Below, one piece after another: positions 2,380 to 16,095 of a stretch of 64,000 nucleotides of DNA. Numbering within the stretch: the first letter of the stretch is position 1; each line of letters starts with the position of its first letter. Source of the DNA: Thermoanaerobaculia bacterium (GTDB lineage Bacteria; Acidobacteriota; Thermoanaerobaculia; Gp7-AA8); the NCBI GenBank assembly GCA_041671505.1, contig JBAZBK010000001.1, positions 5,582 to 69,581 on the forward strand. The letters run 5' to 3'. The position numbers and the translations under genes are program-made. The notes below the pieces were generated by a model, which saw only the letters and a program-made list of their open reading frames with translations, made no database searches and was not told the origin of the DNA.

Positions 2380-2383
2380 GCGA

Positions 2384-2515
2384 AAGGCAGGCCAGAGGCC
2401 AAAGGCCAAAGCAGGCAATGATGTGGCGCAGACACTCCTGTCTGCGCGCGGCGCGAAGCGCCGCATGATTCTTAGCAACGGCCCTCGGCCGTTGCGCGAA
2501 GGCCGGAGGCCTTCG
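2384..2515. terminator. Cluster of four GC-rich hairpins in a convergent intergenic gap (argJ on +, GH3 gene on -)
   Basis: Successive perfect inverted repeats gcgcagaca/tgtctgcgc, gcggcgc/gcgccgc, gcaacggcc/ggccgttgc and cgaaggcc/ggccttcg, preceded by aggcc/aaagg repeats. Probably a bidirectional terminator or REP-like region. Confidence 0.4.
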
Positions 2516-4111
2516 CTACAGGAGCACCTCGCGCCAGCCGGTCTCTGGGCGCAGGCACGATGCTTTGACCGCTCCGAGGAGTTGTCCGCGGTGCGCGAGC
2601 TCGGCGACCACCGCACGGTGCGCACCCTCACCAACCTGCACCACCTCGACCGCAGCGAGCTGTCCCAGCTTCCGCGCCCAGTCGTAGTGCGGATTCGCCG
2701 AGAGCTCGCGCTCGAGACGCTGCGCGATTCCCTCCGGCAGCGATGCGCGCGCATCGACGAAAAGCACGTACCCCGCGGCCGCATCCGACCGCTCCGGCGC
2801 GAGCATCGCGAACTCAGGCATTCTCTCGTCGCCACCGAATGCGGCGGCGAGCGCCGACGCGACGAAGCCTTCGCTCAGCTTCTCGCCGCAGAGGTCAGAG
2901 ATCCGGTCCTCTTTCCCGACGAAGCGGATCGATGGGGTATTCGAGACGAATCCATCGACGCGCACCAGGTCGTGAAGGCGGTAGCGGTAGAGCCCACCCG
3001 AGGTCGTGACGACCACGGAGTAGGTCTCCCCTTCCCGCGCCTCCTCGACGCCACGTACTTCGCCTCCGGCGTCGACCATCTCGATGAAGTGGCTCCCGAT
3101 CGCGATCGGCCTCGCCCCTCCGAACGGCAGCGAGACGATCGCCTCCGTCGCGACGAGTCCCTTCGGCACGATCGGCGTCGCCGGAATGAGCCGACGCAGC
3201 GCCGCCACGGCGCCCGCCGCCTGCCCGTCCGCCCAGCAGCTGATGCAACCGAGCCTCGGCCACACGCTCTCCGGCCGCGCCGGATCGGCCGCCTCGAGAC
3301 TCCGCGCGAGCGCGCGATCACCGCGCATGACGATCGCCGCGTCGGCGCCCTCGAGACCCGGCACCCGCACGCCATCCGCAACTGCGCGTAGCAGATCGCC
3401 CCATCGCTCCGCCATGAAACTGCAGAGCAGCTCGAGGAACGACGGATGCCACACGGAAACGACGCGCAGCTCCCTCGCGCGGAGCAGGAAGAGGAGCGTT
3501 GCCATTCTGAAGTCGTCGACGTTTTCGACGTGACGCACCGACGATGGCACGGCGAGCGACGCCCTAACCAGTCTCCTCGACCAGAATCCGAGGTATGCGG
3601 AGTCGTCGTCGAAGCCGACCGGCACTGCGCCCGCTTCGTTCGACTCGGGGATCGCCGGAGAGATCGCCCAGTACGACGGGCCGCGCAGCAGGTCGCGGTT
3701 CCCGCGGAACATGTCGGAGATCCATGCGCCGATCGCACGCTGAAACTCGCGGCGGAGCGACGGCGTGAACGGGATCAGCTTCCGCGCCGCGGTGCTGCCC
3801 GAGCTCGGAACCAACCTCTCCACCGCGTCGGCAGTGAGCACCCGCTGTTCACCGGCCCGAATCCGCTCGACGTACGCGACGTAGTCGTCGTAGCTCGAAA
3901 GCGGCACGCGCTCGCGATAGTCGGACACCGAACGGATCCCGGCAAAACCCATTGCGCGCCCGAATGCCGTCCCTTCGTTGCGCCTCACGATTCGCTCTAG
4001 CAACGCGGCCTGCTCCCGCGCCGGATCGTCGAGGGCGCGGCGCAGCGCGCCAGCGTCTTTCCGGCACGACCGTTCCCACGCAAGGTTCGCGAGGAACGCG
4101 CTCGCCTTCAC
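2516..4111 (-). CDS. GH3-family acyl-acid amido synthetase (adenylate-forming, amino-acid conjugating)
   Basis: 531 aa. Contains the GH3 motif-I-like SSGSTAARKLIPFT plus further GH3-like blocks. Its start ATG overlaps the stop of the upstream acyltransferase gene. Confidence 0.8.
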   Translation of the reverse strand: MKASAFLANLAWERSCRKDAGALRRALDDPAREQAALLERIVRRNEGTAFGRAMGFAGIRSVSDYRERVPLSSYDDYVAYVERIRAGEQRVLTADAVERLVPSSGSTAARKLIPFTPSLRREFQRAIGAWISDMFRGNRDLLRGPSYWAISPAIPESNEAGAVPVGFDDDSAYLGFWSRRLVRASLAVPSSVRHVENVDDFRMATLLFLLRARELRVVSVWHPSFLELLCSFMAERWGDLLRAVADGVRVPGLEGADAAIVMRGDRALARSLEAADPARPESVWPRLGCISCWADGQAAGAVAALRRLIPATPIVPKGLVATEAIVSLPFGGARPIAIGSHFIEMVDAGGEVRGVEEAREGETYSVVVTTSGGLYRYRLHDLVRVDGFVSNTPSIRFVGKEDRISDLCGEKLSEGFVASALAAAFGGDERMPEFAMLAPERSDAAAGYVLFVDARASLPEGIAQRLERELSANPHYDWARKLGQLAAVEVVQVGEGAHRAVVAELAHRGQLLGAVKASCLRPETGWREVLL

Positions 4112-4848
4112 GCGCCTCTCCGCCCGGAGCCCGCCGTTTCAGGAGCGATCGCGCCGCTGACCATCCGCCAGCCGGCGCGCGTGAGGTTGGCGGCCGAGAT
4201 CTCCGTCAGACAGACGAGCTCGTCCCCATCGGCGTGCCCGGGATTGCGCTCGAGGAAGAAGGCGACGTGCGGGTCGTGCAGCCTACCGACGGCGAGCTCG
4301 CGAAGGTGCGGCCGCAGGCGCGCCGGCTCGCGGAACCTGACGATCCCCGCCGCGGAATCGTATTCGTCGCCTAACAACGGACCCGCGAGCGCGTCGATCC
4401 GTCTCGCCGTCTCCGGTGGCGTCTCCGCGTCGAAGCACGGATGGAAGGAGCGCCAGAAGAGCGGCAGGTATCGGTAGGTGCGAAATCCCGACGTCAGCAG
4501 CAGCCAGAAGATCCGCGACGTCGACGCGCCCGACTGCAGCTCGAGGATCGACGCGATCCAACTTCGTGCGAGCGCCGGACTGCCCCAGTGCGACGGATCG
4601 ACGATCGTGTCACCGGAGTAGACGATCGAGACCCGCTCGCCTTCGAGCTCCGTCACGTAGAAGAGAATCGTCGAGAAGCCCGCGAGCGTTCCGTCAGCGT
4701 CCCGGAGCAGGAGGACCCAGTTCTTCCCACCGAGGTCGAGCTCGAACCTCGCACGGGAGACGTTCTCGAAATGCGCGTCGATCAGCGCGTACATCTCGCC
4801 GACGACTTCGGGCGCGAGCGCGCTGCGTGCGGTGAGCGTTCCGATCAC
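4108..4848 (-). CDS. GNAT-fold N-acyltransferase, N-acyl amino acid synthase-like
   Basis: The conserved C-terminal 247 aa (VIGTLTARS...FYVTELEGERVSIVYSGDTIVDP...) lies behind a GTGA start/stop overlap with the upstream gene at 4845-4848. The 506-aa ORF listed (to 5628) has an Arg-rich N-terminal extension that overlaps the neighbouring gene and is judged artefactual. An alternative ATG start is at 4794. Confidence 0.55.
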   Translation of the reverse strand: MIGTLTARSALAPEVVGEMYALIDAHFENVSRARFELDLGGKNWVLLLRDADGTLAGFSTILFYVTELEGERVSIVYSGDTIVDPSHWGSPALARSWIASILELQSGASTSRIFWLLLTSGFRTYRYLPLFWRSFHPCFDAETPPETARRIDALAGPLLGDEYDSAAGIVRFREPARLRPHLRELAVGRLHDPHVAFFLERNPGHADGDELVCLTEISAANLTRAGWRMVSGAIAPETAGSGRRGA

Positions 4849-5951
4849 AGCGTCGCCACCTCCACGTGCAGCGGCCGGGCATCGAGCCCCGTCGATTCCT
4901 CTCCGTCGTAGAGCACTCCGTAGAGAATGCTCCCGAGGATGCGGGCGCGCAATCGGTTCCGCAGCGCCGGAACGAGCGGCCGGCTCTCCGCGAGGCCAAG
5001 AACGAGCAGCTCGAGCTTCCGCGCCACAGCCGTGTTTCTGATCCGGTCGATCAGCGCGATCGCGACGGCCGGATCGTCGTCGATCACCGCGAAGTGAGAG
5101 ATCGTGGCGATGCGCAGTCTCTCGCCGACCGCCGGCAGCCTCGGTTGGCCCGTCATCGAATACCAGGCGTTCGCGATGCCCCGCACGCGCCCTAACCATG
5201 GCGCATAGCCGCGCACGACGCTCTGCCGATATTCCGACTGGTCCCAAAGCGCCGCGCCGCCGACGATCACACCCTCGCGCATTGCGACGACGAAATCGTC
5301 GAGCGACAAATCGCGTGTGGCCTCGTTCGACAGCAGATCGCCCTCGGTCCAGACGGGCGCGAGCTGATACGCGCGGTATTGCGCTTGAAGAAACGACGCG
5401 ATCGGCGCGGCGCCCACTGCAGCACCTCGCTCGATTGTCAGACCGGAGGGCGCGCTCGAGGCGCGTCTCGAAGCGACCGGGACGAGCAGCGTCCGGAACC
5501 CGCCGAGCGGAACGTAACGCGGAAGGCCACGTACGCCTCGCTCGAGAAAGCGCCGCGCCGTCGCGTTGTCCGCCATGATGCTCGTGTAGTCGAAGGGGAG
5601 CTCGTCGTCGAGACGCGACGCGCGGCACGCTGCGAATCCCGCCTCGATCGTGTGTCTGATCGAAGCCGCCGCGCGCTCCGAGCGAAGCTGCCCGAGGTAA
5701 CCGACTCTCGCCAGACTGCCGTTCACCCAGACTCGGCGCACCGCTCTGCTGCAGAGCCCCGTCACCGCTCCATCGGCTTCTCGTGCGACGAAGACATGGT
5801 GCCGCTCACCCTCGACGGTCGCGGAGAGCGCCGCATCGGGCTCGCGCTCGAAGGTGAGTCGGATGTCACCTTCCATCGGCGTGCGGCGCAGCAGCGCGCG
5901 CACCGCCGCGTCGTCTTCGGGGGTCGCCCGCTCAAGCACCCGTCGCGGCAT
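4845..5951 (-). CDS. GNAT-domain protein with C-terminal domain of unknown function
   Basis: 368 aa. The N-terminal roughly 170 aa show GNAT features (TPEDDAAVRALL..., ...ADNATARRFLERG). It overlaps the downstream gene by 4 nt and the upstream radical SAM gene by 20 nt, so the genes are translationally coupled. Confidence 0.5.
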   Translation of the reverse strand: MPRRVLERATPEDDAAVRALLRRTPMEGDIRLTFEREPDAALSATVEGERHHVFVAREADGAVTGLCSRAVRRVWVNGSLARVGYLGQLRSERAAASIRHTIEAGFAACRASRLDDELPFDYTSIMADNATARRFLERGVRGLPRYVPLGGFRTLLVPVASRRASSAPSGLTIERGAAVGAAPIASFLQAQYRAYQLAPVWTEGDLLSNEATRDLSLDDFVVAMREGVIVGGAALWDQSEYRQSVVRGYAPWLGRVRGIANAWYSMTGQPRLPAVGERLRIATISHFAVIDDDPAVAIALIDRIRNTAVARKLELLVLGLAESRPLVPALRNRLRARILGSILYGVLYDGEESTGLDARPLHVEVATL

Positions 5952-7335
5952 GGGCCATCACGCTCCCCCGAGGCAGCAGCTCGCCGGGCCAGCTCTCGTC
6001 TCCCATCGGCAGGCCGTTGCGCCCCGAGACGTCGCGTTGATGCAGCGTGTTCGCGACGAGGAACGTCGCAAGCATCCGCGGATTGCGAAGATGCACCGGG
6101 TGCCGCATCCGCTGGACGATGCTCGGCCACGAGTAGAAGTCGCGCCGCGCTTCGAGGCAGAGCGCCGCGAGCTCCTTCGGCTCGAGCCGCTTCGGCAGGA
6201 ACGGCACGTCGTTGTACCTGTATCGCGCGTCGAGCCACCACGCGTCGTGCAGCAGCCTCCCCTCGGTCGCGAGCCTCGCGTAGAGCGGCGTCCCGGGAAA
6301 CGGCGTGATGTGATTGAACGCCGCGATGAAGAGCGCCTGGTCGCGCGCGAACCTGACCGTCTCCCGGATCGACTCCGGCGTGTCCTGGTCGTAGCCGAAG
6401 ACGAAGGTCCCGTAGGTCCGCAGGCCGAAGCGATGAAGATTCGCGATCGCCGCCGCCGCGCCGCCGCGCATCAGGTTGAACCCCTTGTTCATCGTGCGGA
6501 GCGTTTCGGGGTCGAGCGACTCGAGGCCGACGAGTACTCCCTGGCAGCCGCTCCGCCGCATCAGCTCGAGCGCTTCCTCGTCGTGCGCGACGTGGATCGC
6601 CGTCTGGCTGACCCATCGCACTTTGAGAGGAATCAACGCGCGCATGAACTCCTTCGCCGCGTCGAGCTCGCACGTCATGTTGTCGTCGACGAAGAAGATC
6701 ATCTTCCCCGACGCGCGCACTTCTTCGACCTGGGCTAGCACGCTGTCGAGCGAGTGGACCGCATGCGTCGCGTTGTGGAACGACTGCACCGCGCAGAACT
6801 CGCACTTGAACTTGCAGCCGCGCGCGAACTCGATGAGGTGGATAGGCAGGTAGTTCTTCCCGCGATAGATCGAGCGCAACGGCCTAACCGATCCCGCGAG
6901 CGATCCCGTCCCCGCGTATGCGTCTGCCGCGTTTCCGCGGCGGTAGTCGTCGATGACCTGGCGGAACGTCGTCTCTGCGTCGCCCGTCACGATCGTCTCG
7001 CAGTGCGCGCGGACCTCCGACGGGCAGAGCGTCGCGTGGTAGCCCCCCATCACCACGGGGACTCCCCGCTTCCTGTACTCGCTCGCGATCTGATAGGCGC
7101 GGCGCGCCGTGTAGGTCTCGACGCTGATCGCGACGAGGTCGGTCGGCGCGTCGAACGGGACCTTCTCCATCCGGTCGTCGTAGAAGCGCACATCGACATC
7201 GGGCGACGCGAGCGCGGCGAGATTCGCCGCGGGAAGCGGCTCCATCTGCCACGTACGGATGTAGCCGCGCATCCCCACCCTCCGGCCGACGCAGGGATGG
7301 ACGATCGTCAGCCGGAAGCGCTCACGCGATCTCAC
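5932..7335 (-). CDS. B12-binding radical SAM enzyme (class B), paralog 2
   Basis: 467 aa. Rossmann-like N-terminal cobalamin-binding region, a CKFKCEFC CxxxCxxC cluster motif, and end-to-end similarity to the upstream paralog. Overlaps the upstream gene by 14 nt. Confidence 0.85.
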   Translation of the reverse strand: MRSRERFRLTIVHPCVGRRVGMRGYIRTWQMEPLPAANLAALASPDVDVRFYDDRMEKVPFDAPTDLVAISVETYTARRAYQIASEYRKRGVPVVMGGYHATLCPSEVRAHCETIVTGDAETTFRQVIDDYRRGNAADAYAGTGSLAGSVRPLRSIYRGKNYLPIHLIEFARGCKFKCEFCAVQSFHNATHAVHSLDSVLAQVEEVRASGKMIFFVDDNMTCELDAAKEFMRALIPLKVRWVSQTAIHVAHDEEALELMRRSGCQGVLVGLESLDPETLRTMNKGFNLMRGGAAAAIANLHRFGLRTYGTFVFGYDQDTPESIRETVRFARDQALFIAAFNHITPFPGTPLYARLATEGRLLHDAWWLDARYRYNDVPFLPKRLEPKELAALCLEARRDFYSWPSIVQRMRHPVHLRNPRMLATFLVANTLHQRDVSGRNGLPMGDESWPGELLPRGSVMAHAATGA

Positions 7336-8680
7336 GCGCCGCCTCGTCGCTCCGCCCCAGCGGAGCCGGAATCATCGCGTCGCACGTGTACATGCGATCG
7401 AGGTGATAGGCGTAGTAGCGGTAGCCGAAGTTCGTGCCGAGTGCCGTCATCCAGGGCGCGGCGGTCCGTCGCAGGCGCGACCACATCCCCGGCAGGCTGT
7501 AGGCGTGCTTCCACGCGAGCTCGGTGCCGCGCTGCAGCTCCGCCGCGGTCATCAGCGCCGGGCGGAAGACGACGTGCTGCCCGTCGTAGAGGCTCCAGTC
7601 GCGCGTCGTGATGCGCCCCTGCGCGTCGAGGTCGCGATGCAGCGGCGTCGCCGGGAACGGCGTCACGATCGCAAAGCGCGGAAGATCGATGCCTGCGCTC
7701 ACCGCGAGCTTCGCGGTCTTCAGGAAGACGTCGGGGCCGTCGTCGTCCAACCCGAAGACAAAGCAGCCCTGCAGCGCGATGCGATGCCGGTGCAGTTTCT
7801 CGACGACCTCCGCGTAGTTGCCCGGAACGTTGAATCCCTTTCCCGTCTGCCGCAGCGACACCGGCGAGAGCGATTCGAGTCCCATGAGCAATCCCCGACA
7901 GCCGCTGCGCGCCGCGAGCGCGAGAAGTGGCGCGTCGTCGCAGAGGAGCGTCGTCGCCAGTCCGTACCATGCGATCCGCAGAGGGACGAGCGCCTCGAAC
8001 AATTCGGCCGCGTACTCCTTGTCGGCGATGATGTTGAGGTCGACGAAGATCGCGTGCTTCGCGCGGCGCCGGCGGATGTCTTCGACGATCGCCTCGACCG
8101 GCTTCTGGTAGGGCTTTCGTCCCCACGCCGTCGGCACGACGCAGAAGCTGCAGTTGTGGATGCAGCCGCGCGTCGCCTCGAAGACGTTCGCGGTGAGGTA
8201 GCGACCCTCGGGCAAAACCGAGCGATCGGGAAGCGGATAGCCGGTCAGTGTGAGATCCGGCCGCTGGTCGTAACGGCTCTTCATCGCCCCGGCCGCGAAG
8301 TCTCGCAGCAGCTGCGGCCAGCTCTCCTCCGCGTAGCCGACGACGATCGCGTCGGCGTTCGGCGCCGCGTCGTCGGGGACGAGCGTGACGTGAGGCCCCC
8401 CGAGGACGACGGGGATGCCGCGAGCGCGAAACTCCGCGGCGAGCTCGTAGGCGCGCATCGCGGTTCCGGTGATCACCGTCATCCCGACGAGATCGACGTC
8501 GATCGAGGTGTCGACGTCCTGAATCCCCTCGTCGAAGCAGACGACGCTCGCGTCGAGCTCGGGAGGGACCAGCGCAGTGAGCGTCGGGAGCGTCAGCGGC
8601 ATGTAGCGCAGCGACTTCCTGAAGATGCCCTTCCGATAGCGGTAGAGCGGTCCCTTGGGTGAGATTAGTGCGATTCGCAT
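7322..8680 (-). CDS. B12-binding radical SAM enzyme (class B), paralog 1
   Basis: 452 aa. MRIALISP... B12-binding N-terminus and an ATRGCIHNCSFC radical SAM motif. Confidence 0.85.
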   Translation of the reverse strand: MRIALISPKGPLYRYRKGIFRKSLRYMPLTLPTLTALVPPELDASVVCFDEGIQDVDTSIDVDLVGMTVITGTAMRAYELAAEFRARGIPVVLGGPHVTLVPDDAAPNADAIVVGYAEESWPQLLRDFAAGAMKSRYDQRPDLTLTGYPLPDRSVLPEGRYLTANVFEATRGCIHNCSFCVVPTAWGRKPYQKPVEAIVEDIRRRRAKHAIFVDLNIIADKEYAAELFEALVPLRIAWYGLATTLLCDDAPLLALAARSGCRGLLMGLESLSPVSLRQTGKGFNVPGNYAEVVEKLHRHRIALQGCFVFGLDDDGPDVFLKTAKLAVSAGIDLPRFAIVTPFPATPLHRDLDAQGRITTRDWSLYDGQHVVFRPALMTAAELQRGTELAWKHAYSLPGMWSRLRRTAAPWMTALGTNFGYRYYAYHLDRMYTCDAMIPAPLGRSDEAAREIA

Positions 8681-8782: not shown

Positions 8783-10261
8783 TCACGCGTCCGCCCCCGC
8801 GACTGATCCGGGGCTGAAGCTTCCGTCATGGCTGCGCTGGCGTCGCGCGAAACTCACGATCGATGCGCGGAACGTCTCGAGAAGTCGCCGCGCGCGGGCG
8901 TCGTCGAGCGCTTCGATCTCGCGAGAGGCGCTCTCCAGCGCCCGTTCGGAGCGCGTGAGCTCTGCCGCCGACCATGCGCGGAACGCTTCGCTGCAGCGCA
9001 GCTCGCCCACCGAGACGTTCGACCAGGCTGAACGAGGCACGTTGACGAGCCCGTGCGCGAGGTCGTCGTCGAGATCGCGGAAGACCGAGCACCAGGCGAG
9101 CGCACCGAGCAGCGCCGGGACATCGCTCGCTCGCGCGCGACAGCCGGTGACGACGAGCATCAGGTCGACCGAGAGCTCGAAGGTACGGCGATGATGCGCG
9201 GCGAGCTGCCGTTCGTCCCAGACGGCTCGCGCGAGAACACGCTCACGATCGACGCGCATTTCGCACACGAGCGCGATGAATTCGGCCTGCGGGTCGGCCT
9301 CGTCCGAGCGAATGGCGTCGAGCTCCGCGAAGAGCGCTCCCGTCAGTCGGGAGAGTGGTTCCGACGTGAACCGCCGACGCGTCATCTGGTCGATGAGCTC
9401 GTCGACGACCTCGAGCGGTTCCCGCGCCGACGCACGGTCGCCATCGAGCAAGTCGTCGATCCACTGCGCCGTGCAGAAGGCGAAGCGCACGGCACGCCTC
9501 GCGCGCCAGCGAAGAAGCGAGGGAAGCCAGATCGCGAGAAAGATCACGAAGTAGCGGCGGTGCCTGATGGAGAATCGCGCGCACTGCTCGAGACAGCAGA
9601 GCTCGGCCCAGAGATTCGAGCGCGATTCCCGCCGCTCGAGAGGCCGGTAGACGAGCAGTATTCCCGCCGCCGCGAGCGCGGCTCCACCGACGAGATCGAC
9701 GAGATGATGCTCCTGGATCAGCAACGCAGACGCCGCCACCGCCGCGCTCCAGCCGATCCAGAGCGCGCGCCCCATCGCACCGGAGCGGCGCGCATAGGCC
9801 CACGCCGCCGTGCAGGCGAAGGCGACGTGAAGCGACGGGAACTGGTTGTACTCGAGGTTGATCGCGTCGGCGAGATTGAAGAAGCCGGCGGCCCAGCCGT
9901 GAACGACGGGGCGCGCGAAGGCGGTCGTCTGCGGGAATGCGAAGAAGAAAGCAGTGGCCACGAGCGTCTCGATGACGAGGGCTGCCCAGAGCGGTACGAG
10001 CTCTCCCGGACTGCGAAACACGAACGGCGCGAGCATCAGCGCAGGAGTGATCGTGAGGTAGACGATCGCGAGCGACGGCACGAACGGGAGGCTCGACTCG
10101 AACGGCAGATCCCAGGCAGAGAGGCCGATGAGGCGCGACGTCCACCACGACGCCCCTCCGTAACAAAGCGCAAAGAGAATCGCGAATGCCGCGCAGAGCG
10201 GGATCGTGCTCCGAAGCTCGCGTCCGGGCCAGGCGAGAAAGGCCTCTCGCGGCGCCGTCAT
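8783..10261 (-). CDS. Fusion protein: N-terminal PAP2_3 (Aur1/IPC-synthase-like phosphotransferase) membrane domain plus C-terminal squalene/phytoene synthase family domain
   Basis: Start set at the ATG at 10261, which overlaps the stop of the upstream desaturase gene (ATGA). The N-terminal half is multi-TM with PAP2 motifs FPSLHVA and HHLVD. The C-terminal half carries both Asp-rich SQS/PSY motifs: FAFCTAQWIDDLLDGD (compare YAFCRvADDviD) and FRDLDDDLAHGLVNVP (compare RDxxeDxxxGRxYLP). The 781-aa ORF listed (to 11128) has 289 Arg-rich N-terminal codons overlapping the desaturase gene and is rejected. Confidence 0.75.
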   Translation of the reverse strand: MTAPREAFLAWPGRELRSTIPLCAAFAILFALCYGGASWWTSRLIGLSAWDLPFESSLPFVPSLAIVYLTITPALMLAPFVFRSPGELVPLWAALVIETLVATAFFFAFPQTTAFARPVVHGWAAGFFNLADAINLEYNQFPSLHVAFACTAAWAYARRSGAMGRALWIGWSAAVAASALLIQEHHLVDLVGGAALAAAGILLVYRPLERRESRSNLWAELCCLEQCARFSIRHRRYFVIFLAIWLPSLLRWRARRAVRFAFCTAQWIDDLLDGDRASAREPLEVVDELIDQMTRRRFTSEPLSRLTGALFAELDAIRSDEADPQAEFIALVCEMRVDRERVLARAVWDERQLAAHHRRTFELSVDLMLVVTGCRARASDVPALLGALAWCSVFRDLDDDLAHGLVNVPRSAWSNVSVGELRCSEAFRAWSAAELTRSERALESASREIEALDDARARRLLETFRASIVSFARRQRSHDGSFSPGSVAGADA

Positions 10262-11265
10262 GATGCGAGCCTCTCCGCGTCCGGAATCTCGGCATTCGCG
10301 GGAAGCGGACGCGGACCGCGCCACATCTGCAGGTAGATCGTCCAGAACGAAGGCCGTTCTTCGCTTCGATCCACGAGCCCCCCGAGATGAATCCACGGAA
10401 CCTGGGGATGGCGGTGGTGCGCCAGGTGATGGTGGTAGTTGAGAAAGAGCCTTCGTGTGAGGCCGTTCACCCGCAGATTCCATGCGCCATCGCGTACGTC
10501 GAGCTTCGAGAAGGCGTGGTCGGTGTACTGCAGCGAGCTCCAGTTGAGCGCGAAAGCGGCGTAGCAGGCGAGCCATCCCGTCCAGCTGAGATCGAGCACC
10601 TGGAACATCGCCACCTGCACCGCGGCGCTGCAGAGCAGCTCGAGCCGGATCCTGACTCCCGATGCGTCGGCGAGACCCGCGAACATCGACGCCCCGCCCG
10701 TCTGCAGTGCGAGCTGCGAGTCGCGCGCCCCGAGGAACCTTGTCTGAAATGCCCGCGGAACGATGAAGTAGACGAGCCCGCCGAGCGGAACGAAGAGCCA
10801 GTAGAGCCCGGTGAGGATCGCGTACCACTGCGCGTACTTCAGGACGACGTTGTCGCCGGGATGAACATAGTCGAACTGCTCTGCCGCCGTCCGGTTGCGC
10901 GCGTGGTGCGCGAGGTGAAAGACGCGCTGTAGTGCGAGCCCGGTCGGAAAGAACGCCGCGGCGAGACGCCCGATCCACTCGTTCAGACCCCGATGCGCGT
11001 GAGCGATTCCGTGCACCGACTCGTGCAGCAGCGCGAACATCGTGTTGTTGAGGAAGGCGAAGGTGATCGCGGCGACGACGACGGTCCAGGTCGAGCCATG
11101 TGAAGCGAGACGCAGCAGGAAGGCGCAAGATGCGGCGACGGCGACGAGGAGCACGAGATTCCAGCTCCCCGGAATCGGGTAGTCACCGTTACGTGGAAGC
11201 CGCAAATCGCCGATGAGGATCATCCTTTGTCTCTTGTTCCCCTCAGACCGCCATCTCACTGACAT
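10258..11265 (-). CDS. membrane fatty-acid desaturase/hydroxylase superfamily protein (CrtW/DesA-like di-iron His-box enzyme)
   Basis: Three His boxes, HESVHG, HLAHHAR and HHHLAHHRHP, with several hydrophobic segments. An alternative start is at 11223. Confidence 0.8.
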   Translation of the reverse strand: MSVRWRSEGNKRQRMILIGDLRLPRNGDYPIPGSWNLVLLVAVAASCAFLLRLASHGSTWTVVVAAITFAFLNNTMFALLHESVHGIAHAHRGLNEWIGRLAAAFFPTGLALQRVFHLAHHARNRTAAEQFDYVHPGDNVVLKYAQWYAILTGLYWLFVPLGGLVYFIVPRAFQTRFLGARDSQLALQTGGASMFAGLADASGVRIRLELLCSAAVQVAMFQVLDLSWTGWLACYAAFALNWSSLQYTDHAFSKLDVRDGAWNLRVNGLTRRLFLNYHHHLAHHRHPQVPWIHLGGLVDRSEERPSFWTIYLQMWRGPRPLPANAEIPDAERLAS

Positions 11266-11472: not shown

Positions 11473-12120
11473 TCAGGCCGCGGCTCCCATCCGCCCGGAG
11501 CGCTTCCCGATCACGAAGCCGACGAGGAGACCGAGCGGAAGAAGCACCATCGCCGTCCCGAAACCTAACTTCCTCACCTTCGCGAGAACCGGATTGTCGA
11601 AGACGTTCGCGGAGTAGTGAAAGCTCGCGATCAGCCAGCGATCGCCTTCGCGCACCATCGTGCAGCTCCACCGCCCCTTGATGTCGAACGTCTGCCCACC
11701 GACCAGCTCGTAGTGGTCGTTCGAGCTCCCGTAGGCGACGCCCGTGTCGCCCCCGTAGAGCGTCGTCAGGGCGTCCGCCTCGAACGCGACCTTCACGTCC
11801 TTCACGACGTGACCCGGCCCGTTGAGCATCTTGTCGAAGTAGGCGCGAATCGCGTCCTTCCCTTTGCAGACGTCGCCGTTCATCGTCGTGAATACGACGT
11901 CGGGCGTCACGTTCGCGACGATCGTCTCGAGGTCGCGCTCGTTGAGCGCCTTCGACATCGTCGCCTTCAGCTGGCGAAGCGCCTGATGCACGGCTTCGTC
12001 GTTTGCGGGCACCGGTGCGATGACCGGAGCCGGCGACGTCGCGGAAGCGGGCGCCGGCGCAGTCGCGCTCGGCGCGACGACCGCGATCAGCAGCAGGGTG
12101 GAAAGCAGTGAGCTCATCAT
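11473..12120 (-). CDS. NTF2/SnoaL-like fold protein with signal peptide and C-terminal TM anchor
   Basis: Start at the ATG at 12120 (MMSSLLSTLLLIAVVAPSATA..., GAGGAG Shine-Dalgarno 5 nt upstream). Its ATG overlaps the upstream Rieske gene stop (ATGA). The ORF listed to 12432 has an Arg-rich extension inside the Rieske gene and is rejected. Confidence 0.5.
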   Translation of the reverse strand: MMSSLLSTLLLIAVVAPSATAPAPASATSPAPVIAPVPANDEAVHQALRQLKATMSKALNERDLETIVANVTPDVVFTTMNGDVCKGKDAIRAYFDKMLNGPGHVVKDVKVAFEADALTTLYGGDTGVAYGSSNDHYELVGGQTFDIKGRWSCTMVREGDRWLIASFHYSANVFDNPVLAKVRKLGFGTAMVLLPLGLLVGFVIGKRSGRMGAAA

Positions 12121-13238
12121 GTCTCCTCTCGCTCGAATCGGGGAAGGTCGCAGAGATACTGATAGCAGGCGTCGAGTGTCGCATCGCGCTCGTCGTCGAA
12201 ACGCGGGTGGAACCTGATTCCCTGGAGAGCCCTCACGTCGCGCCTGAGAAACGCGATGAAGAGGAGCTTCGCAAGGTGCGCGTGGATGACGTGAAGCCCC
12301 GATGGACGCCTCGGCACGCCGACGAGCGGCAGCAGCGACACGCCGCCCGAAACCGGACGCAGGCTCACGATGAGGAAGCTGCGCCTCGTTCCCACGGTCG
12401 CTTCGACCACGACCATGCTCCCGCCGGCACAAGTGACGACGTTGCGGATGTCATCGCCCGACAGCGCGCGCATCGCCCGGTCGCTCCACCCATCCCCCGT
12501 AACCGACGTCGCGTATCGAATCCGGAACGTCATCGCGTCGGGCCGATCGATCTCCGGCTCGCAGTGGAGACGACGCCGATGCACGCTGCCGAGATGCGCC
12601 ATGTCGAATGCGTTGGCGACCGGCACGAACCAGGGGCAGTCGATGAACGCCGGCTTGCCCGATACGAAGAAGAGCGTCTCGGGATCGACGCCGGAGAACG
12701 AAGGGATCGGCAACGGAGGATTGGCGCCGAGGTAGACGAAGATCATCCCGAACTTCTCCGCAGCGCTGAACTGCCGGCGTCTCAACTCCGCGGGGACTTC
12801 GGCCCGTCCCGGAATCGATTCGCACGCGTCGCCGTAGAGCCAGTGGTGGAGCGGGCAGCGAAGGCGGTCGCCGACGACGTCGCCATGCGATAGATCGACA
12901 CCCTGGTGCGCGCAGTGCGCGGGAATCGCCCGGACGGTTCGCGACTCGCGGCCGCGGAACAGCACGATCTGCTCGCCGCCGACTTCGAACCGGCGCGCCT
13001 CGCCAGGACGCAGCGACGACGACGGCGCCAGCATGTACCACCACGGCACGAGCTGCGGCGGCACGCGCTCGGGAGGCGGTTCGTCGGAACGAACCTGCAG
13101 AAAGCGACCTTTCGAGGTCGCGATCAGCGGCCGGATGTGCGTCTCATGTTCAGGAATTCCGAAATTATAGGGCCGAAGCGCCACGCGCAGCACGTCGAGG
13201 TGGCCGCGGTCGCCGGGGAGCGCGAGGCCAGCGGGCAC
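12117..13238 (-). CDS. Rieske [2Fe-2S] domain non-heme iron oxygenase-like protein
   Basis: 373 aa. Rieske ligands CAHQG...(17 aa)...CPLHHW (CxH...CxxH) after a typical VPWWYMLAPSSSL...VLFRG lead-in, with a large C-terminal catalytic domain. Confidence 0.8.
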   Translation of the reverse strand: MPAGLALPGDRGHLDVLRVALRPYNFGIPEHETHIRPLIATSKGRFLQVRSDEPPPERVPPQLVPWWYMLAPSSSLRPGEARRFEVGGEQIVLFRGRESRTVRAIPAHCAHQGVDLSHGDVVGDRLRCPLHHWLYGDACESIPGRAEVPAELRRRQFSAAEKFGMIFVYLGANPPLPIPSFSGVDPETLFFVSGKPAFIDCPWFVPVANAFDMAHLGSVHRRRLHCEPEIDRPDAMTFRIRYATSVTGDGWSDRAMRALSGDDIRNVVTCAGGSMVVVEATVGTRRSFLIVSLRPVSGGVSLLPLVGVPRRPSGLHVIHAHLAKLLFIAFLRRDVRALQGIRFHPRFDDERDATLDACYQYLCDLPRFEREET

Positions 13239-13284: not shown

Positions 13285-13326
13285 GGCTGCCCGCATAAAG
13301 AAAACTGCCCGGCGCGAATCGCTCGC
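13285..13326 (-). terminator. intrinsic terminator for the secreted-protein gene
   Basis: 12-bp perfect stem ctgcccggcgcg/cgcgccgggcag with a 7-nt loop, followed on the minus strand by TTTTCTTTATG. Confidence 0.5.
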
Positions 13327-13368
13327 GCCGGGCAGTGGAAACAACACCGCTGAAAGACTTGAAGACGC

Positions 13369-14394: not shown

Positions 14395-15276
14395 TTACTT
14401 CGGCCAGCGCACGAATTTTGAGGGCAGAGGCTGGAACTCCGAGGGGAGCGGCGCGGTGAAGAGCATCTTCCTGCCGGTCCGCGGGTGCAGGAATCCGAGA
14501 GTTCGCGCATGAAGGGCGAGGCGCCCGAACGGGTCGCTCGCCGCGCCGAAGCGCGCGTCGCCCGCGACGGGAAATCGCTGGTCCGCGAACTGCGCGCGGA
14601 TCTGGTTCCGTCGTCCCGTCTCCAGCGTCACCTCGAGCATCGAGTAGAGCTTTCCTCTCTCGACGACGCGATAGTGCGTGATCGCGAGCTTTCCACCGTC
14701 GCGCTCACCGACGACGCGCACCATCAGCGTGCGCGGTTCCTCACGGAGGTACGACCGGATGGCTCCCTCATCCGTAGGAGGGCCGCCCTCGACGATCGCG
14801 ACGTAGACGCGATCGATATCGTGCTCTTTGAACGTCTCCTTGAGCACGTCGCGCGCGAGGGGGCTCTTCGCCAAGAGCATCACCCCTGAGGTGTCGCGGT
14901 CGAGCCGGTGGACGATGTGGACCTTCTCGCGCTCACCGGCCCGCAGGTACTCATTCAGAAACGCCTCGGCCGTCTGCTCCGTCTCGTCCTTCGTCGCAAC
15001 GGAAAGCAGCCCCGACGCCTTCGCGACGACGATGACATCGTCGTCCTCGTGAAGGATCGACAGCGCGCCCGAGAGCCCCCGCAACTGCGAGCGGTTCGCG
15101 AGATCGATCTCGTCGCCCGGCACGACCCCGCGCCGCGCGTTCTTCTCGAGCACGCCATTGACGCTCACCCTCGACTGCTGAAGCATCTGCCGCAGCGTCG
15201 TCTTGCTCGACTCGGGAAAGCGGAGCGCGAGCGCGGAGAGGAGATCGGTCTTCGCATCGGCGACGAATTTCGGCAC
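14395..15276 (-). CDS. rluD: RluA-family 23S rRNA pseudouridine synthase (RluD-like, S4 + catalytic domain)
   Basis: N-terminal S4-like region and the HRLDRDTSGVMLLAK catalytic Asp motif. Confidence 0.85.
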   Translation of the reverse strand: MPKFVADAKTDLLSALALRFPESSKTTLRQMLQQSRVSVNGVLEKNARRGVVPGDEIDLANRSQLRGLSGALSILHEDDDVIVVAKASGLLSVATKDETEQTAEAFLNEYLRAGEREKVHIVHRLDRDTSGVMLLAKSPLARDVLKETFKEHDIDRVYVAIVEGGPPTDEGAIRSYLREEPRTLMVRVVGERDGGKLAITHYRVVERGKLYSMLEVTLETGRRNQIRAQFADQRFPVAGDARFGAASDPFGRLALHARTLGFLHPRTGRKMLFTAPLPSEFQPLPSKFVRWPK

Positions 15277-15478
15277 GAGAGGGATCTTAGCGCGATCACC
15301 GCCGATCTCGACTCGACATCCCGAAGGGATGTCAGAAGGTAGCCGGGGGTCGCCGCGCGAAGCGGGGCGACCCCCGGATGCAGCGAACGGGAAACCCGCA
15401 CCCCGGAAGCGGTGCCAGCGATTGACATTCCGACCATGGGAAGCTGCATCATTCGGCAGTCACCCGAAGGAGAACGCC

Positions 15479-15937
15479 ATGCGCAGAGCACCCCGACCCA
15501 CCCTCGAAATGAGCGACGCCCGGCAGCAGGGGCTCTTCAACATCGGCGAGGCCTCCGACGCCTCGGGTGTCAGCGCGAAGATGATCCGGCACTACGAGTC
15601 GATCGGGGTGATCCCGCCCGCAGACCGTACGTTCTCCAACTATCGCGTCTATTCGAGGAACGACGTCCACACCCTCCAGTTCGTCCGCCGTGCCCGCGAC
15701 CTCGGGTTTTCGATGAAACAGATTCAGGAGCTGTTAGGGCTCTGGCAGGGGCACAAGAGCAGCCGCGAGGTGCGCAAGGTCGCGCTTTCGCACGTCGCCG
15801 AGCTCGACGAGAAGATCCGTGAGATGGAGGCGATGAAGCGGACGCTCGAAACGCTCGCCTCGCACTGCCACGGCGACGACCGTCCCGAATGCCCGATCCT
15901 GGACGATCTGGCGGGAGAGGCAGGCGAGAGGCGATAG
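15479..15937 (+). CDS. cueR: MerR-family Cu(I)-responsive transcriptional regulator
   Basis: MerR HTH (GEASDASGVSAKMIRHYESIG) and a C-terminal CHGDDRPEC metal-binding loop as in CueR/HmrR. GAAGGAG Shine-Dalgarno 7 nt before the ATG at 15479. Confidence 0.85.
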   Translation: MRRAPRPTLEMSDARQQGLFNIGEASDASGVSAKMIRHYESIGVIPPADRTFSNYRVYSRNDVHTLQFVRRARDLGFSMKQIQELLGLWQGHKSSREVRKVALSHVAELDEKIREMEAMKRTLETLASHCHGDDRPECPILDDLAGEAGERR

Positions 15938-16095
15938 GCGAGAGGCGAAGAGCGGGCGTGTGGAGTGCGAAAGCGGAGCTTTCGCACTCCACATCACAAT
16001 GCCTCTCTGCCGGCTCTCGCCTCTCGCCTCTCGCCTCATCGCCTCATCGCCTCATCGCCTCATCGCCTCATCGCCTCATATCCTCACATTCCTCA
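15915..16095. repeat. GC-rich repeat region: CGCCTCT/CGCCTCAT heptamer-octamer tandem arrays flanking a perfect 14-bp-stem hairpin (15961-15991)
   Basis: tggagtgcgaaagc gga gctttcgcactcca, then (ctctcgc)x3 (ctcatcgc)x5. Lies between the convergent cueR and copA genes. Related copies occur at 26280-26580, 49717-50048 and as fragments elsewhere. Confidence 0.6.

What the first reader, a model, noticed from the sequence alone, without database searches (positions are those of the whole stretch)
2516..5951. GH3 acyl-acid amido synthetase coupled to two GNAT-type acyltransferases at the distal end of the operon
GH3 enzymes, defined by the plant jasmonate- and auxin-amino-acid conjugating enzymes, are uncommon and uncharacterised in bacteria. 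Here the SSGSTAARKLIPFT motif and a 531-aa length are present. The gene is translationally coupled (ATGA overlap) to a 247-aa GNAT-fold protein resembling N-acyl amino acid synthases, and to a 368-aa GNAT two-domain protein. Together they imply amide-bond formation between a carboxylic acid and an amino compound, plus N-acylation. This fits tailoring of the lipid made by the upstream genes.
Basis: partly seen in the sequence, partly recalled or inferred. Interest (0 to 1): 0.6.

Follow-up and report, generated by a model that had tools for sequence, protein, structure and literature searches.

The report
GH3 ligase with two GNAT acyltransferases
Three overlapping genes for an ATP-dependent amide-forming enzyme and two acyltransferases are real and form the conserved core of an undescribed biosynthetic gene cluster found in hundreds of bacterial species; its product, probably an acylated amino-lipid-like compound, is still unknown.

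Summary
Window 2516-5951 (minus strand) carries three overlapping genes. One is a 531-aa GH3 acyl-acid amido synthetase: all three Pfam GH3 domains pass and the nucleotide motifs are intact. The others are a 246-aa single GNAT and a 368-aa tandem GNAT. Neither matches Pfam on its own sequence, but both are GNAT by confident AlphaFold models and Foldseek, and by Pfam hits in their homologues. Corrections: both junctions are GTGA, not ATGA; the middle protein has 246 aa; there is no N-acyl-amino-acid-synthase (PF13444) signal; no SQS gene lies in the operon.

The interpretation needs inverting. In 59 non-cyanobacterial genomes from at least five phyla, the order B12-rSAM, B12-rSAM, tandem GNAT, GNAT, GH3 is essentially invariant. 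The desaturase, PAP2, Rieske and di-iron genes vary. The trio GNAT + GH3 + tandem GNAT recurs without rSAMs in Burkholderia. In Acinetobacter baumannii it sits inside a tripartite efflux operon. The three genes are therefore the scaffold-forming kernel, not late tailoring.

GH3 enzymes are no longer uncharacterised in bacteria (OlsH, 2025), but this clade is not OlsH (50 bits against a 620-bit cut-off; no OlsI). I found no paper on this cluster. The most likely product is a multiply N-acylated, amide-linked, C-methylated lipoamino compound. The acid and amine are unknown.

The parts
2516..4111 (-). GH3-family acyl-acid amido synthetase, 531 aa, GTG start. An ATP-dependent adenylating amide ligase.
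   Evidence: Pfam GH3 N, M and C domains all exceed their cut-offs. Motifs SSGSTAARK (103-111), ATE (321-323) and YRYRLHD (375-381) are present; their key residues (G105, K111, T322, E323, R376, Y377, D381) are invariant, and S104 and S106 nearly so, across 20 homologues including a cyanobacterial one. Matches plant GH3.8 and JAR1 at E 1e-15 and 1e-14. Identical to a public protein named as GH3 family.
4108..4848 (-). 246-aa single-domain GNAT-fold acyltransferase ('G246') with a roughly 100-residue C-terminal portion outside the aligned GNAT core. The most conserved of the three genes of the finding (48-63% identity across phyla).
   Evidence: No Pfam hit on its own sequence. 29 of 46 homologues hit PF13527. 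Model pLDDT is 91.6. Foldseek matches GNAT domains at E about 3e-6. GTGA overlaps at both ends. More than 2678 homologues, with relatives in 578 of 599 pattern-matched stretches of the species-level genome set.
4845..5951 (-). 368-aa tandem (two-domain) GNAT-fold acyltransferase ('G368').
   Evidence: No Pfam hit on its own sequence. 12 of 52 homologues hit PF00583. Model pLDDT is 95.3. Full-length Foldseek matches to tandem GNATs, N-myristoyltransferases and glucosamine N-acetyltransferase. The exhaustive search gives 2641 representatives at E<=1e-3 and 667 at E<=1e-30.
5932..7335 (-). B12-binding radical SAM enzyme 'rSAM_B'. The longest ORF has 467 aa; a public gene call starts at 7272, giving 446 aa.
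   Evidence: PF02310 and PF04055 match. The CxxxCxxC motif is at residue 182. No NCBIfam equivalog is reached; the best are PhpK and HpnJ at 97 bits. Always adjacent to the tandem GNAT in type A loci.
7322..8680 (-). B12-binding radical SAM enzyme 'rSAM_A', 452 aa. A paralogue of rSAM_B (35% identity).
   Evidence: Pfam match. CxxxCxxC motif at residue 181. Paralogy shown. 63-80% identical across phyla.
8783..10261 (-). Integral-membrane PAP2-family phosphatase, 492 aa. The PAP2 domain is N-terminal, and the C-terminal ~290 aa match no family.
   Evidence: PF14378 and PF01569 match. Hydrophobic TM-like segments are present. PAP2 is present in 21 of 25 fully flanked type A loci.
10258..11265 (-). 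Membrane fatty-acid-desaturase-family di-iron enzyme. It overlaps the PAP2 start by 4 nt.
   Evidence: PF00487 at E 3.8e-21. Three His boxes. TM segments. Present in 21 of 25 fully flanked type A loci.
11473..12432 (-). SnoaL-like / DUF4440 (NTF2-fold) protein. The domain lies in the C-terminal half of the ORF, so the true start is probably later.
   Evidence: Pfam match. Homologous to the Chthoniobacter cluster's SnoaL protein.
12117..13238 (-). Rieske [2Fe-2S] oxygenase-like protein. First gene of the putative operon.
   Evidence: PF00355 at E 2e-16. CxH...CxxH motif. Homologous to the Chthoniobacter cluster's Rieske protein.
13304..13336 (-). Terminator-like hairpin (15-bp stem followed by a T-rich tail) that ends the preceding gene. 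It marks the upstream boundary of the operon.
2380..2515 (.). Array of four G+C-rich hairpins in the convergent spacer between GH3 and argJ. It marks the downstream boundary of the operon.
   Evidence: Fold energy -77.1 kcal/mol with z = -4.6 against shuffles. Sequence.

Best explanation
The three genes are a genuine, co-transcribed and phylogenetically conserved enzymatic kernel of a biosynthetic pathway for which I found no published description. They are not late tailoring enzymes. The kernel is a single GNAT (G246), a GH3 amide ligase and a tandem GNAT (G368).

Proposed mechanism:
- The soluble GH3 enzyme adenylates a carboxylate with ATP and couples it to an amine. This is the GH3 mechanism established in plants and for OlsH.
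- The two soluble GNAT-fold enzymes each transfer an acyl group from a thioester donor (acyl-CoA or acyl-ACP) to an amine of the same scaffold.
- The most economical order is as follows. G246 makes an N-acyl amino compound. GH3, its translationally coupled neighbour, activates that compound's free carboxylate, or a fatty acid, and adds a second amine. G368 adds a further acyl cap.
- In this window and in most non-cyanobacterial lineages, two paralogous B12-dependent radical SAM enzymes act on unactivated carbons of the scaffold, most likely by C-methylation.
- Membrane-bound accessory enzymes then modify a hydrophobic, transiently phosphorylated intermediate. These are the fatty acid desaturase-like di-iron enzyme, the PAP2 phosphatase, and the Rieske and SnoaL proteins.

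The product is most likely a cell-envelope lipoamino (aminolipid-type) compound.

Shown: gene structure, family and fold assignments, intact catalytic motifs, synteny, and which proteins are membrane or soluble.

Inferred: the order of steps, the acyl donor, methylation as the rSAM chemistry, and the lipid nature of the product. The identities of the acid and the amine cannot be read from sequence.
For: Gene structure:
- 4-nt GTGA overlaps at both junctions and a 20-nt overlap with the upstream rSAM gene.

GH3 and GNAT assignments:
- All three GH3 domains pass, and the key motif residues (G105, K111, T322, E323, R376, Y377, D381) are invariant across 20 homologues.
- GNAT folds come from high-confidence models and from Pfam hits at family level.

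Synteny across 59 type A genome loci (Acidobacteriota, Verrucomicrobiota, Planctomycetota, Gemmatimonadota, a Limnocylindria MAG and a Proteobacteria MAG):
- GH3 lies directly downstream of G246 in 54 of 55 loci.
- G368 lies directly upstream in 56 of 56.
- Both rSAMs are present in 50 of 50.
- Each accessory gene occurs in only 6 to 21 of 25 fully flanked loci.

The kernel recurs in other architectures:
- Chthoniobacter flavus.
- A Citrobacter IncF plasmid, with five rSAMs plus PAP2 and a desaturase.
- Burkholderia arboris, without rSAMs.
- A. baumannii, between MFP/MFS and OMF efflux genes, with a SurE phosphatase.

Lipid and membrane context:
- The five core proteins have no hydrophobic segments.
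- PAP2, the desaturase, the SnoaL-like proteins and the hexapeptide transferase have TM-like segments.
- The best, sub-threshold NCBIfam names for accessory proteins are lipid enzymes: OlsE, SdmA and CrtW.
- The only characterised bacterial GH3, OlsH, makes an N-acyl amino acid lipid precursor from free fatty acid and ATP (PMC12493201).

No conserved transporter, regulator or small ORF accompanies the type A clusters.
Against: - No substrate is identified, and nothing biochemical was tested.
- The cluster encodes no fatty-acid-activating enzyme, no ACP and no O-acyltransferase of the OlsA or OlsI type. The lipid nature rests only on the accessory membrane enzymes and on analogy.
- The closest solved folds for both GNATs are acetyltransferases of small polar substrates (aminoglycosides, glucosamine, protein N-termini), as well as N-myristoyltransferases.
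- In A. baumannii the trio sits in a tripartite efflux operon with no desaturase or PAP2. That fits a secreted small molecule at least as well as a membrane lipid.
- In cyanobacteria G368 and the rSAMs are absent and the GH3 is only 25-34% identical. The 'kernel' is therefore not universal.
- B12-rSAM enzymes also catalyse ring contractions, cyclisations and P-methylation. The best partial matches are PhpK, HpnJ and BchE.
Confidence: 0.55

Rival explanations
1. A secreted, polar small molecule is made instead of a lipid. Candidates are an antimetabolite, a siderophore-like compound or a signal. GH3 would work as a peptide- or amide-bond ligase on an amino-acid-derived acid. The B12-rSAMs would methylate the amino-acid skeleton, as in phosphinothricin or aminoglycoside pathways. 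One or both GNATs would N-acetylate an intermediate, either as a required protecting step or for self-resistance.
For: - In A. baumannii the trio is interleaved with an MFP-MFS-OMF tripartite efflux system, with no desaturase or PAP2.
- The top fold matches for G246 include AAC(2') resistance acetyltransferases, and those for G368 include glucosamine N-acetyltransferase.
- The best partial NCBIfam hit for rSAM_B is the PhpK P-methyltransferase family, whose known substrate is an N-acetylated amino acid (the substrate is from my own knowledge).
Against: - Type A clusters in 59 genomes carry no transporter.
- They almost always carry membrane-embedded desaturase and PAP2 genes, in 21 of 25 fully flanked loci, even on the Citrobacter plasmid.
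- There is no PEP mutase, NRPS or other hallmark of known antimetabolite pathways.
- The cluster's broad, phylum-wide, vertical-looking distribution in cyanobacteria and Verrucomicrobiota is atypical for a sporadic antibiotic.
Confidence: 0.2
2. This is an OlsH-type ornithine-lipid pathway. GH3 would N-acylate ornithine with a free fatty acid to give lyso-ornithine lipid, and the neighbouring genes would only modify it.
For: - The only NCBIfam hit of the GH3 protein is the OlsH model.
- OlsH is the one characterised bacterial GH3.
- A cyanobacterial cluster member is closest, below threshold, to the ornithine lipid hydroxylase OlsE.
Against: - The OlsH score is 50 bits against a 620-bit cut-off, and the best-scoring stretch covers only residues 8-114.
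- No alpha/beta-hydrolase OlsI is present in or near any of the loci examined. The OlsH paper reports that olsH and olsI share an operon in the planctomycete homologues that cluster with OlsH.
- The two GNATs would have no role.
Confidence: 0.07
3. One reading: the upstream genes (radical SAM, 'SQS', desaturase) build an isoprenoid or fatty lipid, and the GH3 and GNAT genes only decorate its end.
For: The genes lie at the 3' end of the operon. Lipid-type membrane enzymes lie upstream.
Against: - No SQS/PSY-family gene is in the operon or among the large ORFs elsewhere in the window.
- None of the upstream genes is a chain-building enzyme.
- The upstream oxidoreductases are the variable part, and the three genes are the invariant part.
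- The trio exists without them.
Confidence: 0.08
4. This is a ribosomal peptide (RiPP) maturation system. B12-rSAM C-methyltransferases and GNAT lipidating enzymes would act on a precursor peptide, with GH3 as a ligase.
For: B12-rSAM C-methyltransferases and GNAT acyltransferases occur in lipopeptide RiPP pathways (own knowledge). There are weak NCBIfam hits to RiPP rSAM models.
Against: No conserved small ORF was found upstream of rSAM_A or downstream of GH3 in the type A loci. The only recurrent short ORFs are alternative frames of a desaturase gene. No protease or RiPP recognition element protein is present.
Confidence: 0.03

Closest known systems
OlsH/OlsI ornithine-lipid pathway of Singulisphaera acidiphila (PMC12493201)
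   Same: A bacterial GH3-family enzyme that forms an amide bond with ATP, in a lipid-related gene context. The three nucleotide-binding motifs are conserved.
   Different: The score is 50 bits against the 620-bit cut-off of the OlsH equivalog model. There is no OlsI alpha/beta-hydrolase partner. Here the GH3 gene is fused by overlap to two GNAT genes and linked to two B12-radical SAM genes, none of which belong to the OlsHI pathway.
Plant GH3 acyl-acid amido synthetases (OsGH3.8, JAR1, AtGH3.15, GH3.12/PBS3)
   Same: The same Pfam three-domain architecture and motifs (SSGT/S..K, the YRxxD hinge region). phmmer E values are 1e-15 to 1e-11 against solved structures.
   Different: Similarity is confined to two short stretches. 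The gene is bacterial and sits in an operon with acyltransferases. The substrates are unknown and unlikely to be phytohormones.
OlsB / GlsB / FeeM-type N-acyl amino acid synthases (Pfam PF13444)
   Same: A GNAT-related fold that N-acylates an amino compound. This is the role I propose for G246.
   Different: Neither G246 nor any of its 46 aligned homologues hits PF13444; they hit PF13527 instead. FeeM and LuxI-type structures are not among the 50 fold matches shown.
Tandem-repeat GNATs (MAB_4324, Eis-like proteins, glucosamine N-acetyltransferase, N-myristoyltransferase)
   Same: G368 superposes over its full length with two GNAT domains (E 3e-13 to 1e-9, TM 0.55-0.65).
   Different: Sequence identity is 8-15%. 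It belongs to no curated family, and its genomic partners differ.
Class B (cobalamin-dependent) radical SAM enzymes of lipid and natural-product pathways (HpnR/HpnJ, BchE, PhpK, 'ladderane' TIGR04072)
   Same: A B12-binding domain plus a radical SAM core with CxxxCxxC.
   Different: All NCBIfam scores (<=97 bits) fall far below every equivalog cut-off. The pair forms its own clade, highly conserved at 56-80% identity across phyla.

Membership tests
GH3 acyl-acid amido synthetase family (Pfam PF03321 / PF23571 / PF23572) | All three domain models match above their gathering scores | tested here: met
   148.3, 55.1 and 33.3 bits against 23.6.
GH3 acyl-acid amido synthetase family | Three conserved nucleotide-binding motifs | tested here: met
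   SSGSTAARK at 103-111, ATE at 321-323 and YRYRLHD at 375-381. G105, K111, T322, E323, R376, Y377 and D381 are invariant in 20 homologues, and S104 and S106 nearly so.
GH3 acyl-acid amido synthetase family | ATP-dependent adenylation of a carboxylate followed by amide formation with an amine | not testable with these tools
   Requires an enzyme assay.
OlsH lyso-ornithine lipid synthetase (NCBIfam NF052613 equivalog) | Score at or above the curated cut-off of 620 bits | tested here: not met
   50.1 bits; the best-scoring stretch covers only residues 8-114.
OlsH lyso-ornithine lipid synthetase | Operon partner OlsI (alpha/beta-hydrolase O-acyltransferase) | tested here: not met
   No such gene is in the window operon or in the related loci mapped.
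GNAT superfamily, for the 246-aa protein | Match to a GNAT profile | tested here: inconclusive
   The window protein matches nothing at E<=10. However, 29 of 46 homologues hit PF13527, best E 9.6e-7.
GNAT superfamily, for the 246-aa protein | GNAT fold | tested here: met
   The model has pLDDT 91.6. 157 PDB matches have E<=1e-3, and all 50 shown are GNAT-type acetyltransferases or GNAT-fold toxins, aligned over about 130-160 columns. The C-terminal ~100 residues fall outside the aligned core.
GNAT superfamily, tandem type, for the 368-aa protein | Two GNAT domains in one chain | tested here: met
   The model has pLDDT 95.3. Full-length matches to tandem GNATs include 7q3a at E 3e-13. 12 of 52 homologues hit PF00583. 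The window protein itself has no Pfam hit.
N-acyl amino acid synthase / OlsB family (PF13444) | Profile match | tested here: not met
   No hit for the window protein. Across 46 homologues only PF13527 and one stray family matched.
Squalene/phytoene synthase (SQS_PSY, PF00494) in the operon | Profile match in any upstream ORF | tested here: not met
   No such hit in the operon ORFs or in ten large ORFs elsewhere in the window.
Cobalamin-dependent radical SAM enzymes, for the two upstream genes | B12-binding domain, radical SAM domain and the CxxxCxxC motif | tested here: met
   PF02310 and PF04055 match both proteins. Motifs are at residues 181 and 182.
RiPP biosynthetic cluster | Conserved precursor-peptide ORF next to the modifying enzymes | tested here: not met
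   No conserved ORF of 18-90 aa flanks the core in the type A loci.

The most novel reading that the evidence does not exclude
The GNAT-GH3-tandem GNAT kernel defines a previously unrecognised, very widespread family of bacterial amide-linked lipoamino compounds. It is extended by B12-radical SAM enzymes in most phyla and by Rieske and di-iron oxygenases in cyanobacteria. The compounds would be a new class of envelope lipid or surface-active metabolite. They would be made by at least ~570 species across seven or more phyla, including cyanobacteria, soil Verrucomicrobiota and Acidobacteriota, and the pathogen Acinetobacter baumannii. In this reading GH3 acts as a headgroup-extending ligase, not as the first N-acyltransferase as in OlsH.
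Probability: 0.3. Interest if true: 0.75.

Novelty: new variant of a known kind. Interest (0 to 1): 0.55.

Why it matters
Only one bacterial GH3 enzyme, OlsH, has a known function, although thousands exist. This finding defines a second, distinct and much more elaborate genomic setting for the family: a syntenic five-gene core, conserved across phyla, that has no literature.

The core occurs in culturable and genetically tractable organisms. These include Chthoniobacter flavus Ellin428, Chlorogloeopsis fritschii PCC 6912, Nostoc, Burkholderia arboris and A. baumannii. The product can therefore be identified directly by knockout lipidomics or metabolomics.

If the product is an envelope lipid, it would add a new branch to bacterial aminolipid biosynthesis. 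It could also explain 'unidentified aminolipids' in these phyla. The pair of exceptionally conserved B12-radical SAM enzymes would then be a new lipid-modifying chemistry of possible biomarker interest. If the product is instead a secreted metabolite, the A. baumannii efflux-linked version becomes interesting for pathogen biology.

Tried and rejected
- **Direct HMM confirmation of the two GNATs.** Pfam and NCBIfam searches, with Pfam relaxed to E<=10, gave nothing. Profile searches of both family alignments against PDB sequences gave only non-significant hits, E 0.14-0.6. I therefore relied on structure prediction and on Pfam hits in homologues.
- **Literature.** Six searches combined GH3, radical SAM, B12, Rieske, desaturase, GNAT, cyanobacteria, Acinetobacter and 'GH3 auxin-responsive promoter'. 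None found a paper on this cluster. Only the OlsH paper and a review turned up.
- **SQS.** No such gene is in the operon or among ten other large ORFs of the window.
- **RiPP hypothesis.** No conserved small ORF was found.
- **Riboswitch or other RNA regulator.** Rfam found only three tRNAs.
- **PAP2 fusion idea.** I tested whether the long PAP2 protein is a fusion with the 330-aa unknown protein of Chthoniobacter. It shows no similarity.
- **G246 as a duplicated half of G368.** hhalign gave only a weak match, probability 18%, E 1.3e-3.
- **Spread of the Citrobacter plasmid cluster.** It was absent from 5,426 E. coli genomes, and its own plasmid was the only PLSDB record matched.
- **Azospirillum homologue.** The Azospirillum brasilense Sp7 G246 homologue I examined stands alone, with none of the partner genes within 10 kb. 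I did not use these homologues for inference.

Full report
**1. What is in the sequence.**

The window is 63-70% G+C. It comes from a Thermoanaerobaculia (Acidobacteriota) metagenome-assembled genome: the 368-aa and 531-aa proteins are 100% identical to public proteins from a 413-kb contig.

- 4845-5951: 368 aa, ATG start.
- 4108-4848: 246 aa, GTG start.
- 2516-4111: 531 aa, GTG start.

Both internal junctions are 4-nt GTGA overlaps, not ATGA. The 368-aa gene overlaps the stop of the upstream gene by 20 nt. The motif SSGSTAARKLIPFT is at residues 103-116.

The transcription unit probably runs from a Rieske gene (12117-13238) down to GH3. It is bounded upstream by a strong terminator-like hairpin at 13336-13304. 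Downstream, four G+C-rich hairpins fill the convergent spacer to argJ (z = -4.6).

**2. Family assignments.**

The 531-aa protein is a GH3 acyl-acid amido synthetase.
- All three Pfam domains exceed their cut-offs (148, 55 and 33 bits against 23.6).
- It matches solved plant GH3.8 and JAR1 at E 1e-15 and 1e-14.
- Key residues of the three nucleotide-binding motifs (G105, K111, T322, E323, R376, Y377, D381) are invariant across 20 homologues, including a cyanobacterial protein only 29% identical.

The two smaller proteins match nothing in Pfam or NCBIfam, with Pfam tried up to E<=10. Profile searches against PDB sequences are not significant either.
- 29 of 46 homologues of the 246-aa protein hit PF13527.
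- 12 of 52 homologues of the 368-aa protein hit PF00583.
- AlphaFold models are confident, with pLDDT 91.6 and 95.3.
- The 368-aa model aligns over its full length to tandem-repeat GNATs: MAB_4324 at E 3e-13, glucosamine N-acetyltransferase, Eis-like proteins and N-myristoyltransferases.
- The 246-aa model aligns over about 130-160 columns to single GNAT domains: an Eis-like N-terminal domain, NatD and AAC(2'). Its C-terminal ~100 residues fall outside the aligned core.

The suggested kinship with N-acyl amino acid synthases (PF13444) is not supported.

**3. The neighbours.**

Upstream on the same strand lie:
- Two paralogous B12-binding radical SAM enzymes, 35% identical and both carrying CxxxCxxC.
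- A 492-aa membrane PAP2 phosphatase.
- A membrane fatty-acid-desaturase-family protein with three His boxes.
- A SnoaL/DUF4440 protein.
- A Rieske protein.

No squalene/phytoene synthase family gene is present in the operon or among ten other large ORFs of the window. The rest of the window holds unrelated housekeeping, sensor and transport genes.

**4. Comparative context, the decisive evidence.**

Of these, 578 encode a relative, and the 80 best loci were fetched with 10-kb flanks. I mapped the window's proteins and those of two reference clusters onto them and counted.

Type A comprises 59 loci from Acidobacteriota, Verrucomicrobiota, Planctomycetota, Gemmatimonadota, a Limnocylindria MAG and a Proteobacteria MAG. 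They share the order rSAM_A, rSAM_B, tandem GNAT, GNAT, GH3.
- GH3 lies directly downstream in 54 of 55 informative loci.
- The tandem GNAT lies directly upstream in 56 of 56.
- Both rSAMs are present in 50 of 50.

Median identities to the window proteins are 66% (rSAM_A), 60% (rSAM_B), 54% (GNAT), 45% (GH3) and 38% (tandem GNAT).

The accessory genes vary, by contrast. Among 25 loci with full flanks:
- The desaturase and PAP2 each occur in 21.
- SnoaL occurs in 15, Rieske in 13, an AurF-like di-iron protein in 13, and a 330-aa unknown protein in 12.
- A membrane-anchored hexapeptide transferase occurs in 9.

The cultured Chthoniobacter flavus Ellin428 carries a complete version.

Type B comprises 21 cyanobacterial loci, including Chlorogloeopsis fritschii PCC 6912, Nostoc and Calothrix.
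- They keep the 246-aa GNAT at about 50% identity.
- In 9 of 14 informative loci they also keep a distant GH3 (25-34% identity).
- They lack the rSAMs and the tandem GNAT.
- In their place are three Rieske oxygenases, a 2Fe-2S ferredoxin, two soluble di-iron proteins, a fatty acid hydroxylase-family protein and a hexapeptide transferase.

A tblastn search of annotated plasmid and chromid records added three more architectures.
- A Citrobacter portucalensis IncF plasmid carries GNAT, GH3, rSAM, rSAM, tandem GNAT, rSAM, rSAM, PAP2 and a SnoaL-like gene, plus a divergent rSAM and desaturase.
- Burkholderia arboris carries GNAT, tandem GNAT, desaturase, GH3 and Rieske, with no rSAM.
- Acinetobacter baumannii carries MFP, MFS, GNAT, GH3, an outer-membrane factor, tandem GNAT and SurE.

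The A. baumannii proteins hit 85, 70 and 60 of the 85 loci held when that search was run. The homology is therefore real despite 21-29% identity.

The three genes of the finding are thus a recurrent functional kernel.

**5. Mechanism.**

What the families establish:
- GH3 enzymes adenylate a carboxylate and transfer it to an amine. This is shown for the plant enzymes and for bacterial OlsH, which makes N-acyl ornithine from free fatty acid, ATP and Mg2+ (PMC12493201).
- GNATs transfer an acyl group from a thioester to an amine.
- Class B radical SAM enzymes act on unactivated carbon or phosphorus centres, most often by methylation.

My inference is that the kernel builds a scaffold holding up to three amide bonds. 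Tight coupling of the single GNAT to GH3 is seen in type A, Citrobacter, A. baumannii and one cyanobacterium (L027). It suggests consecutive steps: N-acylation of an amino compound, then GH3-dependent ligation of a carboxylate to a second amine.

A precedent for this need exists. Dipeptide-headgroup aminolipids and the ATP-dependent taurine addition to ornithine lipid have no assigned enzymes (PMC12971839). This is an analogy, not evidence.

A lipid-like, membrane-resident substrate is suggested by several points:
- The five core proteins are soluble, while PAP2, the desaturase, the SnoaL-like proteins and the hexapeptide transferase carry hydrophobic segments.
- The accessory proteins' nearest, sub-threshold names are OlsE, SdmA and CrtW.
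- Type A clusters lack any transporter.

A phosphatase recurs, as PAP2 or as SurE in A. baumannii. This hints at a phosphorylated intermediate. The amine could be an amino acid, a polyamine or an amino sugar. Nothing here discriminates between them.

**6. Rivals.**

- A secreted polar metabolite with GNAT capping or resistance is the strongest rival, because of the A. baumannii efflux context and the acetyltransferase-like fold matches.
- An OlsH-type ornithine-lipid pathway fails its membership tests: 50 bits against 620, and no OlsI.
- A RiPP system fails for lack of any conserved small ORF.

**7. Novelty and score.**

Every enzyme belongs to a known superfamily, and the GH3 gene is already named as such in the public record. 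The annotation itself is therefore not new. The statement that bacterial GH3s are uncharacterised is out of date.

What is new, as far as six full-text searches could show, is the conserved kernel and its five-gene form with two highly conserved B12-radical SAM enzymes. It is spread over many phyla and onto an enterobacterial plasmid.

I rate it a new variant of a known kind, with interest 0.55. It is a well-defined and widespread orphan pathway with tractable hosts, but its product and physiological role remain inferred.

Noticed in passing
window 2380-2515: The 136-bp convergent spacer between GH3 and argJ holds four consecutive G+C-rich hairpins (7-9 bp stems). The fold energy is -77.1 kcal/mol, z = -4.6 against shuffles. 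They may be bidirectional terminators or a REP-like element.
   Followed up: partly
L069 9947-19312 (Calothrix); also L055 (Chlorogloeopsis fritschii PCC 6912), L020, L032, L035, L080, L085: A cyanobacterial variant cluster runs G246 homologue, Rieske, ferritin-like, AurF-like, Rieske, 2Fe-2S ferredoxin, Rieske (VanA_C), fatty acid hydroxylase (closest to OlsE, below threshold), hexapeptide transferase and a distant GH3. It has no radical SAM and no tandem GNAT. O2-dependent enzymes may replace the rSAM chemistry.
   Followed up: partly
L089 1418-13513 (Citrobacter portucalensis IncFIB/IncFII plasmid NZ_CP134684): A version of the cluster with five B12-type radical SAM genes plus PAP2, SnoaL-like and desaturase genes sits on a mobilizable enterobacterial plasmid. 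It is absent from 5,426 E. coli genomes, and its own plasmid was the only PLSDB record matched.
   Followed up: partly
L087 5150-14583 (Acinetobacter baumannii chromosome NZ_CP064203, filed as a plasmid in PLSDB): The GNAT-GH3-tandem GNAT trio (21-29% identical to the window's) is interleaved with HlyD-type MFP, MFS and outer-membrane-factor genes. A SurE-like phosphatase and a 214-aa unknown protein follow, and an amidase gene lies upstream. No literature on it was found.
   Followed up: partly
window 7322-8680 and related loci: rSAM_A is unusually conserved for a biosynthetic enzyme: 63-80% identity between Acidobacteriota, Verrucomicrobiota, Planctomycetota and Gemmatimonadota. That exceeds every other gene of the cluster. 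Some loci (L034, L008, Citrobacter) carry extra paralogues.
   Followed up: partly
window 8783-10261: The PAP2 protein has 492 aa here against about 224 aa in Chthoniobacter. Its C-terminal ~290 residues match no family and are not the 330-aa unknown protein of other clusters.
   Followed up: partly
L051 9618-11258; also L030, L033: In three Acidobacteriota loci a sulfatase-family gene lies between GH3 and the desaturase gene.
   Followed up: no
window 15203-18853: A MerR-family regulator gene lies divergent from a 925-aa P-type ATPase carrying three YHS domains and two HMBD heavy-metal-binding domains. This is probably a copper or heavy-metal efflux unit, unrelated to the finding.
   Followed up: no
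L090 (Azospirillum brasilense Sp7 p1) and seven other Azospirillum replicons: More distant G246 homologues (27-30% identity) occur on Azospirillum replicons. The one examined, L090, stands alone with no GH3, tandem GNAT or rSAM within 10 kb. The GNAT family is therefore broader than the cluster.
   Followed up: no
L058 (Holophagales MAG): This is the single type A locus without a GH3 gene after the GNAT. Two M16 peptidase genes lie a few kb downstream instead.
   Followed up: no
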